DNA from: the human T2T-CHM13v2.0 reference genome, Homo sapiens
NCBI RefSeq assembly: GCF_009914755.1
Contig: NC_060946.1
DNA length: 64,000 bases
Reading direction: 5' to 3' (one strand)
Part shown: one piece after another, positions 7,661 through 13,770 of the stretch
How positions within the stretch are numbered: position 1 is the first letter of the stretch
Layout of the letters: each line of letters starts with the position of its first letter
Notes under the pieces: generated by a model
The model's input: only the letters and a program-made list of their open reading frames with translations
Told to the model about the DNA's origin: nothing
The model's database searches: none
Program-made: the position numbers and the translations under genes

Positions 7661-7843
7661 ATGACACAGCTGACTACGCCCTTGGTCACAGGGGACCTGA
7701 GATCCTCCACGATTTACGGGACCGGCGCCACCTCGGGCTCGAACCACCCTCTCGATAGGGCCGCCGCTAAGTAATCGGCGTAGGGGTTCAGCCGCACATC
7801 TCCTTCCCGCGCCGCGGACCGAGCAGTCGTTGGTGCTCTTCAG
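7661..7843 (+). pseudogene. Exon 1 of an unprocessed C5orf52/4921536K21Rik-like pseudogene
   Basis: GCCGCCATG start; translates MTQLTTPLVTGDLRSSTIYGTGATSGSNHPLDR/(fs)RR*VIGVGVQPHISFPR/(fs)PRTEQSLVLF-S; donor TTCAG|GTGCGG, phase 2. Homology recalled, not searched. Confidence 0.8.
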
Positions 7844-9214
7844 GTGCGGCCTGGGTGCCCAGAGCCTTCGTTAGACTCTCGGACCCGCAAGGGAGCCCGA
7901 ACTCTTTCAGACTCGCTCTCCCTCAGCCGGACCTCGGCCCTTTTTCACACCCCAGGGGAGTCTGGATTTCTCATAGTCCTGGGCACCAGCCCCTTCCCAG
8001 TCTAGCTCTTGGGACTCCCTGAAGCCGGAACTCCCTCGCCTGGACTCCCGGGAGAACCTGGAATCCCCATCTCCAGTCCACATTTTCTCAGAATCTGTCC
8101 TAGCCCTTCAGTCTCCCAGGCATGACATCGTGTGGTCCCAGCGCCCTAGGTGGTGAGCTGTGACTCTCCTTAGAGCCTGGCGAGGCCGAGGTCCTCCCCA
8201 GCTCGAACCCATCCCACACTCCCCTTCTCAGCCTCTGTGTTCCCCAGTGGTCCTGGAAAAGCCCCCAGTTCCCTCTGCCTGGCCCCAATCCTCACAAACC
8301 CAATTACCCACGCTCCTTTCCATTCCATAACCCCCATCACTGCATCCTCCAGGCTCCCATCCATGGAGGACTTGAGGTGGAAAGCAATTTGGTTCAAAAT
8401 AACCATTATTTATTACTTGAAAGGGAATATTTCCAGTCGTTGCCAGCCTCCTCCCCTTCTAGTATTGGTAAATTTTTTGCACCACTGAGTGGGTGAAGAG
8501 TTTTATGCGTCTTTAAATGTTTTAAGGATTTTTTTAAAAAAACAAAAAACTCTCAGGATTTGGGGGACTTTTGTGTTTGAGCATCTTGATCTCTAAACCA
8601 GCTTTTTCCATCACCTCATACCTAGGCTATGCATAGAGGTCAGAAAAATGTAAATGAGAGATTGAGAAGTTGGATTGTTCATACTAGTTTGTAAATATGA
8701 AAACATTCACAACACTCCAGTTCCAAATAGGCTGAAAATGCATTAGAAAAACTAGTCCTTCAATATTTTTTATCCTTCTACAGTTGTCTTTTTTGACCCA
8801 ATTATAAAAGTAGTGTACACTTATAGAAAAATGAGGACAGGCATGGTGGCTCACGCTTGTATTCCCACCACTTCACTTTGAAAGGCTGAGGCAGTTGGAT
8901 CACCTGAGCTCAGGAGTTCGAGACCAGCCTGGGCAACAGGGTGAAACCCCATCTCTACCAAAAATACAAAAAATTAGCCGGGCTTGGTGGCTCACCTGTG
9001 GTCCCAGTTACTCAGGAGGCTGAGGTGGGAGGATCACTTGAGCCTGGGATGTGGAGGTTGCAGTGAGCTGAGATTGTGCCACTACTCTCCAACCTGGGGG
9101 ACAGAGTGAGACCCCGTCTCGAAGAAATAAAAAGAAGACAAGACAGGCCAGCAGCATAAGTGGCTAGGGACAATCACTGTTAACATTTTGGTGTATTTTG
9201 ATCAGAATCCATTC

Positions 9215-9262
9215 ATATATATATATATATATATATATATATATATATATATATATATATAT
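9215..9262. repeat. (TA)n microsatellite
   Basis: About 24 perfect AT units. Confidence 0.97.
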
Positions 9263-10891: not shown

Positions 10892-11006
10892 CTTAATGAT
10901 TCCAGTGAAGCAGCAGTGAAAAATTTTTTACTCATATAAAAAGAGCAGTTTATCTTGGGTGGGTTTTTATGACAAGCTCATAGCACAACGACTCCATGAG
11001 GTGCAG
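10892..11006 (+). pseudogene. Exon 2 of the C5orf52-like pseudogene
   Basis: Acceptor cctttccctccccgctccAG|C and donor CAG|GTAAAG are intact. Translates S-LM/(fs)SSEAAVKNFLL[+7 nt]KSSLSWVGFYDKLIAQRLHEVQ; phase 2 at the start matches exon 1. Confidence 0.8.
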
Positions 11007-13567
11007 GTAAAGTAGCCACAAGCTTTTGCATTAGAGGGTGTTAGTGGCTTGACCCATATTCATTTCATTCTCTCTATATCCTGGGGGATCATAAAGGTGA
11101 TAGGAAGTCCCCAAGGTGCTCTAAGGCAGGCCCCGTTTTACAGAGGAGGCAATTGACACTCAGGGTTACTGACTTGCCCAAGGTGTCACACCTGTTCCTA
11201 GGCTAAGGAGGCTAGAAAGACTCCATGTCTCTTGGTTTTGTTTTTGTTTTTGTTTTTCCTGAAAGCACATTATCTCTCTAGGGAACCCATGAATGGATTC
11301 TTATTTTCTCCCATACAAAGTCTTGGGTTCTAGGCTGGGCGCGGTGGCTCATGCCTGTAATCCCAGCACTTTGCGGGAGGCAGGACGGTCACTTGAGGTT
11401 AGGAGTTTGAAATCAGCCTAGTCAATGTGGCGAAGCCCCGTCTCTACTAAAAATACAAAACTGATCTGGGCATGGTGGTGGGTGCCTGTAATACCAGCTA
11501 CATGAGAGGCTGAGACATGAGCATTGCTTGAACCGGGTGGTGAAGGTTGCAGTGAGCTGTGATAGTACTCCAGCCTGGGCAACAGAGCAAGACTCCGTCT
11601 CAAAAAAAAAAACAAAAACAAAAAAACAAACAAGCAAAAATAAATAAATAAAACCCCCAAAAAACTAAGGTCTTGGGTCCTAGAGTTTGAATCAGCATTA
11701 ACAGCATCTTGTCAGTTTTTTCCTTTGGGGATTATCCCCATTTTCCAGATGAGAACTGAGGCTCTTCTCCCACTTTTTGCTTATGGACAGGTAAGAGTTT
11801 GACTCAGGCTTACTCAAAAGCCTGAGTGCTGTCACCTACTGTTCCCATAGACCCTAATTGATGAACTCATTAAACCTGTCCTTAGGGCCTGCTTGGGACA
11901 GCTACTGTGTTGGGTGCTAGGAAGAGACACATGAAAAAGATGGACACCAATAACATACTCATTTTTTCAAACAGAGCAGGAAGCCCAGGGTTGAGCTTCT
12001 GCCCCTTCTTGACTCTGTTGACTTCTCTCCATGTTCCAGGGTCAAGTCTGGATGGGCCCACAGGATTCTAACATCAAAAACAGTTGGAGATCCTTAAGAG
12101 ATGGTGCCAGATCCTCTTGAAGGTCACAAAGACAAAAGCAGAGCAGAGACCTGGGCATTTCTGCCTCTGCTAAACTTCCAATGGTGGGATGTAGTGGAAC
12201 TAGATGGGCAGGCCAGCTTTGTGTGACCTTGGGTGAATCACACTTCCTCCAGACTCTGCTTTCTCATTTGTAAAAATAGGATCTATTAAGATCCTCTCAG
12301 TGGCAGGTAATATAAACTGAACTTGAACTAGTTCAAGCAAAATAGAGAAGTTGGGTTTACATAATCAAGGATGGATAGGGCACAGTCGCCAATGTTTTAG
12401 GGGAGAGAAGCCAGGGGCTGTACTACCACCAGGTATGTCTTCCATTCTGTCTTCATTGTCTTTATATTGTGTCTCGTCTCGTCCCGTCCCATCCCGTCCC
12501 ATCCCGTCTCGTCTGTTTGAGACACGGTCTCACTCTTGCCCAGGCTGGAGGCCAGTAGCATGAGGCTCACTGTAGCTTCAACCTCTTGGGTTCAAGCAGT
12601 CCTCCCACCTCAGCCTCCCAGGTAGCTGGGATTACAGGCATATGCCACCATGCCTGGCTAATTTTTTGAATTTTTAGTAGAGATGAGGTTTCACCACATT
12701 GCCCAGGCTGGTCTCAAACTCCTGGGCTCAAGTGATCTGCCCTCCTCTGCTTCCCAAAGTGCTGGGATTACAGGCATATGCCACCGTGCCCAGCCCTTTG
12801 TGGCTTTCTGAACACCAGTATCATTATCAGGCTGGCTGAACCTGGGGAGCAGAGCCACAGGAAACCTTGGCCTGTAGACCACAAGAAGTACTTCCACTGC
12901 TGCTCCAGTTAGACAAATCCTGAGGAAGGACTCCAGTTGGCCCCAGTTGGTTCATGGGCCCATCCCTGTTTTAATCACTGTGGCCAGGTGGTGTGGGGTA
13001 TTCTGAGTGGCCCACGATAGGTTCGGGGCCAACTGGGTGGGGAATGTCGTACACCTTAGGTGGGGCAAGGAACTGTGAACTACTCTTAACTGGAAGCTCC
13101 TGAGTTGGCTTTATGTATACCTGAGGGCTGTGCCAACTTTCAGCTGTCCAGAAGCTTCCTTTTACTTTTTTTTATTTTTTTATTTTTTATTTATTTATTT
13201 TTGAGACAAAGTCTCCCTGTCACCCGGGTTGGAGTGCAGCAGCGTGATCTCAACTCACTGCAGCCTCTGCCTCCTGGGTTCAAGTGATTCTCCTGCCTCA
13301 GCCTCCCGAGTAGCTGGGACTACAGGCGTGCGCTACCACGCCTGGCTAATTTTTGTATTTTTAGTAGAGACGGAGTTTCACCATGTTGGCCAGGCTGGTC
13401 TCAAACTCCTGACCTCAAGTGATCTGCCCTCCTTGGCTTCCCGAAGTGTTGAGATTACAGGTGTGAGCCACTGCGCTGGGCCTTGGAGTTACCTAGCTTA
13501 ATGCCCACTTTTTACAAATAAATAGACTCCCTGTGAGTCAAAGTATTTATGGAATGAATATAGTGTG

Positions 13568-13770
13568 GAGAGAGCTTTAGAGAAGAGCAATAAGGAGATC
13601 AGCCACTAATGAAGATCAGACCACCTGATAAAAACTTTATGACAGACCAGCTCAGAAAGCTGGGGCACTGGAGACGGGAATCCATGAACATCCACCAGTA
13701 CTTGGATAACATTTGTGTATACCAGGAATAGTTGAAACTCCAGTCTCCCAAGAAAGACCAGCCACTCTAG
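13568..13770 (+). pseudogene. Exon 3 (terminal) of the C5orf52-like pseudogene
   Basis: Translates RALEKSNKEISH**RSDHL/(fs)FMTDQLRKLGHWRRESMNIHQYLDNICVYQE*LKLQSPKKDQPL*. Acceptor is degraded; AATAGA at 13861 may be a decayed poly(A) signal. Confidence 0.78.

What the first reader, a model, noticed from the sequence alone, without database searches (positions are those of the whole stretch)
7661..13770. Hidden three-exon dead gene head-to-head with DUSP18: probable ancestral copy of C5orf52
Seen in sequence: a GCCGCCATG start about 230 bp from the DUSP18 TSS region on the opposite strand; a phase-2 donor at 7843; a well-formed 115-nt exon at 10892-11006 whose acceptor completes the Ser codon (AG|C); and a terminal segment 13568-13770. 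Joined across about 5 frameshifting indels and 4 stops they give a roughly 160-aa protein: MTQLTTPLVTGDLRSST...ATSGSNHPLDR..RR*VIGVGVQPHISFPRPRTEQSLVLFS|LM.SSEAAVKNFLLKSSLSWVGFYDKLIAQRLHEVQ|.RALEKSNKEISH..DHL..FMTDQLRKLGHWRRESMNIHQYLDNI. Recalled knowledge: this matches the testis protein C5orf52 (motifs VLFSLMNSSEAAV, FMTDQLRKL), and its mouse counterpart 4921536K21Rik lies between Dusp18 and Osbp2. Inference: the gene was duplicated to chr5 in a primate ancestor and the syntenic parent died here, leaving its promoter to DUSP18. It is invisible to the ORF track; I do not know whether it is annotated.
Basis: partly seen in the sequence, partly recalled or inferred. Interest (0 to 1): 0.9.

Follow-up and report, generated by a model that had tools for sequence, protein, structure and literature searches.

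The report
Dead ancestral copy of C5orf52
Next to DUSP18 on human chromosome 22 lies the decayed original copy of a small testis gene whose working copy (C5orf52) now sits on chromosome 5, a clean example of a gene that moved by duplication and then lost its parent.

Summary
Window 7661-7843, 10892-11006 and 13568-13731 (similarity to about 13764) are three colinear + strand pseudo-exons of the DUF5528 / C5orf52 / 4921536K21Rik family. Evidence: Pfam E 1.1e-11 for exon 3 alone, and colinear tblastn and HMM hits for all three exons. Intron phases are 2 and 0, as in the intact 159-aa chr5 gene.

The copy is an unprocessed pseudogene. It has five frameshifting indels, five in-frame stops, and a 117-bp deletion that removed the exon-3 acceptor.

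It belongs to a DNA-level duplication, window 5461-23924 to chr5 158188859-158203488. K2P is 0.134 over 11,296 aligned bases, with shared Alus, and the block includes DUSP18 exon 1.

Published coordinates put the cattle orthologue 150 bp from DUSP18 and before OSBP2 (PMC6558954). A supplement puts the mouse gene at chr11:3.886-3.895 Mb (PMC6842137). So chr22 is the ancestral site.

A tree places the relic as sister to all anthropoid chr5 genes (98/95), so the duplication falls on the anthropoid stem.

This is a new member of a known kind and of moderate interest.

The parts
5461..23924 (.). chr22 side of the duplicated block (about 18.5 kb). Its partner is chr5 158188859-158203488 (about 14.6 kb) of the same assembly.
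   Evidence: A colinear blastn chain at 82-87% identity per block runs through introns and Alus. K2P is 0.134 over 11,296 aligned bases. No unique homology lies beyond either edge. Genome-wide there are only these two copies plus one 149-bp fragment. Window about 14.5-20.2 kb has no chr5 counterpart.
7001..7414 (-). DUSP18 exon 1 (hub annotation). It lies inside the duplicated block, so chr5 carries an orphan copy of it plus about 1.5 kb of DUSP18 intron 1.
   Evidence: Block 6184-7556 aligns to chr5 158189261-158190605 at 83.5%.
7000..8000 (.). Bidirectional CpG island shared by DUSP18 and the pseudogene. It is kept on both chr22 and chr5.
   Evidence: In 400-bp windows GC is 0.62-0.71 and CpG observed/expected is 0.66-0.98 (0.8-0.98 across 7200-7999). 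The chr5 copy gives the same picture.
7515..7619 (+). 35-bp unit in three tandem copies. It covers the probable ancestral start-codon region. chr5 has one copy.
   Evidence: Self-match of 7515-7556 to 7585-7626. The units are printed. The chr5 chain has a gap at 7556-7615.
7607..7660 (+). Probable ancestral N-terminal 18 codons (MTPNRPPVSNCFSNREAA), in frame with the ATG at 7661.
   Evidence: tblastn aligns the Tupaia N-terminus (E 2.1e-7) and the Galeopterus N-terminus (E 0.001) to 7607 onward. Sapajus, Papio and Hyaena proteins carry the same extension.
7661..7843 (+). Pseudo-exon 1 (183 nt; 212 nt on chr5). Lesions: 24-bp in-frame deletion, 4-bp deletion, TAA at 7768-7770, 1-bp deletion at about 7810. 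The GT donor after 7843 is kept.
10892..11006 (+). Pseudo-exon 2 (115 nt; 109 nt on chr5). The AG acceptor and GT donor are kept. Lesions: 1-bp deletion and a 7-bp insertion carrying a TAA.
13566..13567 (+). Junction of a 117-bp deletion relative to chr5. It removed the end of intron 2, including the pyrimidine tract and the AG acceptor of exon 3.
   Evidence: Pairwise alignment A3. The blastn blocks break at 13566/13567.
13568..13764 (+). Pseudo-exon 3. Lesions: 6-bp insertion with TAA and TGA, 1-bp deletion, and TAG at 13729-31. Outgroup proteins align through that TAG to about 13764. This exon holds the best-preserved motif, KNFMTDQLRKLGHWRRESMNIHQYLDNICVYQE.
   Evidence: Pfam E 1.1e-11. 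Own HMM E 4.8e-16. tblastn down to E 6e-16. Alignments.
4481..4641 (+). Secondary partial copy of the 3' half of pseudo-exon 1 plus its donor. It lies in DUSP18 intron 1, outside the chr5 duplicon. It shares the TAA and the 1-bp deletion with pseudo-exon 1 but not the 4-bp deletion.
   Evidence: 88% identity of 4493-4641 to 7745-7889. Three-way alignment A2. Distances. Pfam genome hit at E 0.19. tblastn.

Best explanation
This is the decayed original locus of the mammalian DUF5528 gene, called 4921536K21Rik in mouse, C17H5orf52 in cattle and C5orf52 in human.

Ancestrally the three-exon testis gene sat head-to-head with DUSP18, shared one CpG-island promoter with it, and lay upstream of OSBP2. 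On the anthropoid stem a genomic segment, now about 18.5 kb on chr22 and about 14.6 kb on chr5, was copied as DNA to what is now chr5q. It carried part of DUSP18 intron 1, DUSP18 exon 1, the bidirectional promoter, the whole gene with its introns, and downstream intergenic DNA. The chr5 daughter survived as C5orf52. The chr22 parent became redundant and decayed into an unprocessed pseudogene.

The relic no longer encodes the protein. Its 5' end persists because it is part of the DUSP18 promoter island.

Shown here: family identity, gene structure, lesions, the extent of the duplication, and the position of the gene in cattle and mouse.

Inferred: the direction of copying, the date, the early death of the parent, and the absence of any remaining coding function.
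For: Family and structure:
- Pfam DUF5528 hit.
- Genome-wide, the family occurs only as the three chr5 exons and this locus.
- The chr5 gene is 212+109+159 nt = 159 aa, with intron phases 2 and 0.
- Exon-by-exon DNA alignments are. tblastn and HMM hits are colinear.
- Homologues named C5orf52 or 4921536K21Rik occur across therian mammals: 195 proteins at E <= 0.001, of which 120 were listed.

DNA-level duplication:
- Colinear blocks link window 5461-23924 to chr5 158188859-158203488.
- One 2,793-column HSP (8743-11478) runs through several Alus, so those Alus predate the copy. Alus are primate-specific (established knowledge).
- Copy-specific Alus show overlapping flanks of the kind target-site duplications produce.
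- There are only two copies in the genome.

Direction of copying:
- Cattle coordinates place C17H5orf52 150 bp from DUSP18 and before OSBP2 (PMC6558954, passage).
- The mouse gene is at chr11:3.886-3.895 Mb. It is flagged as having orthologous flanks in human but no gene specified in Ensembl (PMC6842137, passages and supplement).
- The chr5 copy holds a truncated piece of DUSP18, exon 1 plus part of intron 1 and no coding exon.
- The relic keeps ancestral residues that all anthropoid chr5 genes have lost: D in FMTDQL, WRRESMNI, YLD.I.VYQ.

Timing:
- The relic is sister to a clade of six anthropoid chr5 genes that includes a New World monkey. Support is 98/95 for the pairing and 100/98 for the clade.
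- K2P is 0.134 over all sites and 0.115 over non-CpG sites.
- The macaque gene symbol is C6H5orf52 (PMC11449919, passage).

Death of the parent:
- Lesions are listed.
- The 149-bp fragment at 4493-4641 already carries the TAA and the 1-bp deletion. It differs from pseudo-exon 1 by 0.106, against 0.21 between chr5 and the relic on the same 142 columns. The parent was therefore disabled by roughly half the time since the duplication.
Against: - No other primate genome could be examined. That the relic exists in monkeys, that the chr5 site is empty in tarsier and lemurs, and when each lesion arose are all untested.
- The mouse flanking genes are not named in the paper I read. Only the cattle table names DUSP18 and OSBP2 explicitly.
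- Deep nodes of the tree are unresolved and the bootstrap had not fully settled (correlation 0.987). 'After the tarsier split' rests on the single 98/95 branch and on a supplement row whose species I read from Ensembl ID prefixes (recalled).
- The tree used 27 of the 120 listed homologues, chosen by me.
- The time-of-death estimate rests on 14 differences in 142 columns of CpG-rich DNA.
- Non-coding or regulatory roles for the relic were not tested.
- RefSeq annotates a SLC35E4 transcript exon (7140-8558) and an enhancer (7512-7901) over pseudo-exon 1 (hub table).
Confidence: 0.9

Rival explanations
1. Reverse direction: chr5 holds the ancestral gene, and the chr22 copy is a derived duplicate that landed beside DUSP18 and died.
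For: Either direction explains the two-copy DNA homology and the divergence. The mouse gene is on chr11, which by recall carries synteny blocks for both human 5q33 and 22q12, so the chromosome name alone does not decide.
Against: The cattle gene lies 150 bp from DUSP18 and before OSBP2. The mouse coordinate is 3.89 Mb, and the paper states that the flanks are orthologous in human while no gene is there. The duplicon contains DUSP18 exon 1, which continues on chr22 into the real DUSP18 but is truncated on chr5. The relic keeps ancestral residues lost on chr5.
Confidence: 0.02
2. The relic is not merely dead. It has been kept or reused as non-coding material beyond the shared promoter: an enhancer, the terminal exon of SLC35E4 read-through transcripts, and DUSP18 5'UTR exons antisense to a copied fragment. 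This is compatible with the main explanation.
For: The hub annotation lists a RefSeq enhancer at 7512-7901, a SLC35E4 alternative exon at 7140-8558, and DUSP18 alternative exons at 4496-4602 and 4496-4662. The DUSP18 alternative exons lie inside the copied fragment 4481-4641. On the - strand they are flanked by GT and AG (AC at 4494-95, CT at 4603-04 and 4663-64 on the + strand). The CpG island is retained.
Against: Annotated alternative exons may be transcriptional noise. No expression or conservation data were available here. Divergence in pseudo-exon 1 is not lower than in the flanks.
Confidence: 0.3
3. Processed pseudogene or chance ORF-like similarity.
For: None found.
Against: Introns are retained at the same positions, with 83-87% DNA identity through them. 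E-values reach 1e-11 to 1e-16.
Confidence: 0.01

Closest known systems
Human C5orf52 (chr5 of this assembly, 158190640-158199024) and its family Pfam DUF5528 / mouse 4921536K21Rik / cattle C17H5orf52
   Same: Same three-exon structure with intron phases 2 and 0. 83-85% DNA identity in the exons. Shared motifs: VLFSLM.SSEAA and FMT(D/E)QLRKLG. Same promoter sequence.
   Different: The chr22 copy is disabled by 5 frameshifts, 5 stops and a deleted acceptor. It keeps the ancestral C-terminus, whereas anthropoid C5orf52 has a frameshifted, shortened one...YLTFGIPPPV.
Duplicated (unprocessed) pseudogenes in which the parent rather than the daughter decays, i.e. gene relocation by duplication and loss of the original copy
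   Same: DNA-level duplicate with introns and promoter. One copy survives and the other decays.
   Different: Here the syntenic parent died and the transposed daughter lives. The gene therefore appears 'lost' to synteny-based screens (PMC6842137) and would look young to synteny-based dating.
Unitary pseudogenes (a syntenic relic of a gene intact in mouse, with no functional human copy)
   Same: A relic at the position of an intact mouse and cattle gene, with conserved flanking genes.
   Different: A functional paralogue exists on chr5, so the defining condition is not met.
Catalogued human segmental duplications (by recall, defined as at least 1 kb and at least 90% identity)
   Same: Interchromosomal, about 15-18 kb, with Alus abutting the edges.
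   Different: Identity is 82-87% per block, below the recalled catalogue threshold. It would therefore not appear in such tracks. I did not check any track.

Membership tests
Pfam DUF5528 (PF17666) / C5orf52 family | Match to the family HMM above the curated cut-off | tested here: met
   Exon 3 alone scores 45.3 bits against a cut-off of 28.9, E 1.1e-11. The whole-genome scan gives 41.5 bits.
Pfam DUF5528 (PF17666) / C5orf52 family | Same exon-intron structure as intact members (3 coding exons, intron phases 2 and 0) | tested here: met
   Compared with the intact chr5 gene of the same genome. Structures in other species were not examined.
Pfam DUF5528 (PF17666) / C5orf52 family | Intact open reading frame (a functional member) | tested here: not met
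   5 frameshifting indels, 5 stops and a deleted exon-3 acceptor.
Unprocessed (duplicated) pseudogene | Introns and flanking DNA homologous to a functional paralogue, plus disabling lesions | tested here: met
Processed pseudogene | No introns, a poly-A tail, and homology limited to the mRNA | tested here: not met
   Homology runs through both introns and 2 kb upstream of the start.
Unitary pseudogene | No functional paralogue in the same genome | tested here: not met
   An intact 159-aa gene is present on chr5.
Ancestral (syntenic) locus of the family | An intact orthologue between DUSP18 and OSBP2 in outgroup mammals | tested here: met
   Cattle coordinates in PMC6558954. Mouse coordinate and flanking-gene flag in PMC6842137. 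This is from the literature, not from genome alignments of my own.
Ancestral (syntenic) locus of the family | An empty target site on the chr5-orthologous chromosome of non-anthropoid primates | not testable with these tools

The most novel reading that the evidence does not exclude
After moving to chr5 the surviving gene did not simply carry on. Since the duplication its protein has changed almost as much as the dead copy.

- Tree path to human C5orf52 is about 0.35, against 0.39 for the relic.
- Pairwise dN/dS between the two is 1.16 on 133 codons.
- Its C-terminus was replaced by a frameshift in anthropoids.

So relocation may have been followed either by adaptive remodelling of a testis or cilia protein, or by a slide of C5orf52 itself towards loss of constraint in primates. 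Meanwhile the dead parent supplies promoter, enhancer and exon material to DUSP18 and SLC35E4.
Probability: 0.3. Interest if true: 0.6.

Novelty: new member of a known kind. Interest (0 to 1): 0.5.

Why it matters
- It fixes the evolutionary bookkeeping of an uncharacterised, conserved gene expressed in male germ cells and/or ciliated cells (PMC12328211, passage). Human C5orf52 is not at the position of mouse 4921536K21Rik. It is a transposed daughter, and the true positional orthologue is this unannotated relic.
- It explains why a synteny-based screen listed the mouse gene as 'lost in long-lived mammals' (PMC6842137). The gene was moved, not lost, so that inference is an artefact for this gene.
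- It gives a well-bounded example of an old (about 13% diverged) interchromosomal duplication that carried a bidirectional promoter with it. This is useful for studying what happens to a shared promoter when one of its two genes dies.
- It warns that knockout phenotypes of the mouse gene are being mapped to a human gene with a remodelled C-terminus (PMC5773596 uses C5orf52 as the human orthologue).

Tried and rejected
- Pfam gave nothing for the open pieces of exon 1 (7661-7771) and exon 2 (10920-11006) taken alone. These exons needed tblastn, a purpose-built HMM and the DNA alignment.
- The genome-wide Pfam scan listed two further weak places, C8 at E 5 and C24 at E 9. I treat them as chance.
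- I tested whether the 5.3-5.7 kb of window about 14.5-20.2 kb that lacks a chr5 partner is an Alu-Alu recombination deletion on chr5. The chr5 Alu resembles the window Alu at 20189 over nearly its whole length. The Alu at 14521 has its own direct-repeat flanks. The origin of the gap stays unresolved.
- No unique homology was found beyond the duplicon edges, only Alu matches.
- Literature: 'C5orf52' gave 15 papers, '4921536K21Rik' 4, 'H5orf52' 3 and 'DUF5528' 0. Judged from search listings and the passages I opened, none describes the chr22 relic or the relocation.
- A search on gene relocation, parental copy and pseudogenization gave nothing specific. GenTree (PMC6442393) does not mention the gene in its main text.
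- The Holstein QTL paper PMC12607924 held no coordinates.
- Supplements of most of these papers were not opened and could hold the gene in tables.
- Not done: structure prediction, complex prediction and the protein atlas. A pseudogene verdict did not need them.

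
Full report
**1. Observation**

The window is human chr22 (T2T) between DUSP18 and OSBP2.
- There is an ATG in GCCGCCATG at 7661 and a GT donor after 7843.
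- A 115-nt exon lies at 10892-11006 between an AG acceptor and a GTAAAG donor. Its first base completes AG|C.
- A terminal segment starts at 13568.
- The quoted peptide pieces appear in the three-frame translations.

**2. Family identity**

- Pfam DUF5528 (PF17666) matches the 45-aa open piece of exon 3 at E 1.1e-11, 45.3 bits against a cut-off of 28.9. The open pieces of exons 1 and 2 alone gave no Pfam match.
- Scanning the whole assembly with PF17666 finds the family in only two places.
  - Three clean exons on chr5 cover profile positions 1-71, 71-110 and 107-151.
  - This chr22 locus gives exon 3 at 41.5 bits, plus a weak hit at window 4457-4579 (E 0.19).
  - Two further hits at E 5 and E 9 look like chance.
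- The chr5 gene has coding exons of 212, 109 and 159 nt, giving 159 aa, with intron phases 2 and 0.
- Database homologues are named 'C5orf52 homolog'. In rodents they are named '4921536K21Rik' or 'similar to RIKEN cDNA 4921536K21'. They span placentals and marsupials: 12 hits, and 195 at E <= 0.001, of which 120 were listed.
- I built an HMM from 111 of those 120, dropping nine anthropoid rows. I searched it against all 3,876 stop-to-stop segments of at least 8 aa in the window.
  - Its four best hits are on the + strand and colinear: 7094-7771 (E 0.014), 10787-10936 (E 0.41), 10920-11012 (E 0.0097) and 13594-13728 (E 4.8e-16).
- tblastn with human chr5, tarsier, tree shrew, colugo, two murids, hyaena and koala proteins hits the same three places.

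**3. A genomic duplication, not a retrocopy**

- blastn of 50 kb of chr5 against the window gives a colinear chain from window 5461 to 23924 and chr5 158188859 to 158203488. Blocks are 82-87% identical and run through both introns, the promoter and downstream DNA.
- One HSP of 2,793 columns (8743-11478) runs straight through several Alu elements, so those Alus were present before the copy was made. Other Alus are specific to one copy and show overlapping flanks, as target-site duplications do.
- The block includes DUSP18 exon 1 (7001-7414, - strand, hub annotation) and about 1.5 kb of DUSP18 intron 1.
- At the left edge the chr5 side abuts an Alu. At the right edge the chr22 side abuts an Alu. 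Beyond the edges only Alu matches remain.
- Window about 14.5-20.2 kb has no chr5 partner, and the cause is unresolved.
- Genome-wide the unique part 6200-8740 has only the chr5 partner plus a 149-bp fragment at window 4493-4641.
- K2P distance over 11,296 aligned bases in 11 blocks is 0.134. Excluding CpG sites it is 0.115.

**4. Which copy is the parent**

- A table in PMC6558954 (passage seen) lists cattle BTA17 positions. They are DUSP18 71,750,227-71,755,793, C17H5orf52 71,755,943-71,760,583 and OSBP2 71,771,703-71,894,872. The cattle gene therefore sits 150 bp from DUSP18 and before OSBP2, exactly where the human relic is.
[quoted passage not shown] F means orthologous flanking genes are present in human but no gene is specified in Ensembl (passages).
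  - Its supplementary table gives mouse chr11:3,886,088-3,895,098 on the minus strand.
  - It also gives orthologue IDs whose prefixes I read, from recall, as mouse lemur, sifaka, galago, tarsier, rabbit and several rodents. None is an anthropoid.
  - That paper never mentions C5orf52.
- A primate paper uses the symbol C6H5orf52. By nomenclature convention this places the macaque gene on chromosome 6, which by recall is the homologue of human chr5.
- Internal evidence agrees.
  - On chr22 the duplicated DUSP18 exon 1 continues into the real DUSP18, while on chr5 it is a truncated orphan.
  - The relic keeps residues shared with outgroups that every anthropoid chr5 protein has lost. These are D in FMTDQL, WRRESMNI, R before ALEK, and ...YLDNICVYQ matching hyaena YLDSIPVYK and tarsier YLDSIRVHQ.
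- I conclude that chr22 is the ancestral site and chr5 the daughter.

**5. When**

- I built a maximum-likelihood tree of 29 rows. These were 27 of the 120 listed homologues (chosen by me), the human chr5 protein, and the relic read through with X at each break. 187 of 287 columns were kept.
  - The relic is sister to a clade of six anthropoid chr5 proteins. Support is 98/95 for the pair and 100/98 for the anthropoid clade, which includes the New World monkey Sapajus.
  - Tarsier and strepsirrhines fall outside. Deeper nodes are unresolved, and the bootstrap had not quite settled.
- Together with the shared Alus, this puts the duplication on the anthropoid stem, before the split of New and Old World monkeys.
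- A K of 0.12-0.13 is, by my recollection of primate neutral divergences, about the human-New World monkey level. That is consistent with roughly 45-60 million years, but it is not calibrated here.

**6. Lesions and their order**

Polarised against chr5 and outgroups:

| Part | Lesions |
|---|---|
| Exon 1 | 24-bp in-frame deletion; 4-bp deletion; TAA at 7768-70; 1-bp deletion |
| Exon 2 | 1-bp deletion; 7-bp insertion containing TAA (net +6, so the exon ends in phase) |
| Intron 2 / exon 3 boundary | 117-bp deletion that removed the pyrimidine tract and AG acceptor |
| Exon 3 | 6-bp insertion with TAA and TGA; 1-bp deletion; TAG at 13729-31 that outgroup proteins read through to about 13764 |

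- Two indels near the C-terminus (4 bp and 1 bp) that separate the copies are changes on chr5. They gave anthropoid C5orf52 its short ...YLTFGIPPPV end.
- The probable ancestral start is the in-frame ATG at 7607. The 18 codons from there align with the N-termini of tree shrew and colugo and with the longer Sapajus, Papio and hyaena models. It lies in a 35-bp unit that is triplicated on chr22.
- The 149-bp fragment at 4493-4641 carries the TAA and the 1-bp deletion but not the 4-bp deletion. On 142 shared columns its distance to pseudo-exon 1 is 0.106, against 0.21 between chr5 and the relic.
- The parent was therefore already disabled by roughly half the time since the duplication, and the 4-bp deletion is younger. 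This rests on 14 differences, so it is rough.

**7. What is left working**

- The CpG island over DUSP18 exon 1 and pseudo-exon 1 is retained on chr22, and its copy is retained on chr5.
- The hub annotation puts three further features at or near pseudo-exon 1:
  - a RefSeq enhancer (7512-7901) over it;
  - a SLC35E4 alternative terminal exon (7140-8558) over it;
  - DUSP18 alternative exons (4496-4602 and 4496-4662, - strand) inside the copied fragment.
  I confirmed canonical - strand splice dinucleotides for the DUSP18 alternative exons.
- Whether any of this is functional was not testable here.

**8. The survivor**

- Pairwise dN/dS between the relic and human C5orf52 is 1.16: dN 0.206, dS 0.178, on 133 codons.
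- The tree path from the duplication node to human C5orf52 is about 0.35, nearly as long as the relic's branch of 0.39.
- With small numbers and a CpG-rich exon 1 this is only suggestive. It hints that the relocated gene has evolved unusually fast in anthropoids.

**9. Known or new**

- The homology between C5orf52 and 4921536K21Rik is known. Database names show it, and PMC5773596 uses C5orf52 as the human orthologue.
- The relic is absent from the RefSeq table supplied with the finding. According to PMC6842137 it was not specified in Ensembl v95.
- Searches for C5orf52, 4921536K21Rik, H5orf52 and DUF5528 found no paper that describes the relic or the relocation. Supplements of most papers, GENCODE and pseudogene catalogues were not visible to me.
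- The mechanism, duplication followed by loss of the parent, is a known kind. I rate this a new member of a known kind, of moderate interest.

**10. Limits**

- No non-human genome could be searched. Direction rests on published coordinates plus internal evidence, and dating rests on one tree branch and an uncalibrated distance.
- No expression data were available.

Noticed in passing
window 4481-4641 (+), overlapping DUSP18 alternative exons 4496-4602 and 4496-4662 (-): A 149-bp copy of the 3' half of pseudo-exon 1 plus its donor sits in DUSP18 intron 1. It is 88% identical to 7745-7889. The annotated DUSP18 alternative 5' exons lie antisense within it and have canonical - strand splice dinucleotides (AC at 4494-95, CT at 4603-04 and 4663-64 on the + strand). 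A pseudogene fragment seems to have been exonised in antisense.
   Followed up: partly
window 7515-7619: A 35-bp unit is present three times in tandem on chr22 and once on chr5. It spans the probable ancestral start codon (ATG at 7607) and adds a second, out-of-frame ATG at 7572.
   Followed up: partly
chr5 gene (L012:640-9024) compared with window 7661-13731: Human C5orf52 has diverged from the duplication node almost as much as the dead copy. Tree paths are about 0.35 and 0.39, and pairwise dN/dS is 1.16 on 133 codons. Anthropoid proteins have a frameshifted, shortened C-terminus. Several Old World monkey models in the database are truncated at 134-150 aa.
   Followed up: partly
window about 14505-20190: About 5.5 kb has no partner in the chr5 copy. 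The Alu at 14521-14825 is flanked by a direct repeat (CCTACACAGCATTTT) on both sides. The single chr5 Alu resembles the window Alu at 20189-20490. Whether this is a chr5 deletion or a set of chr22 insertions is unresolved.
   Followed up: partly
window 7140-8558 (+): RefSeq gives SLC35E4 an alternative terminal exon that starts inside DUSP18 exon 1, covers the whole of pseudo-exon 1, reads through its donor, and ends just after an A-rich stretch at about 8533-8549 (hub table).
   Followed up: no
literature: PMC6842137: The paper lists mouse 4921536K21Rik as a gene 'lost in long-lived mammals'. For anthropoids this is an artefact of relocation to chr5. The gene persists as C5orf52, which the paper and its held supplements never mention.
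   Followed up: yes
chr5 158190050-158190470 (L012), partner of window 7001-7414: The chr5 copy retains an orphan copy of DUSP18 exon 1 within a still CpG-rich island, upstream of and divergent from C5orf52. It might give a divergent non-coding transcript.
   Followed up: no
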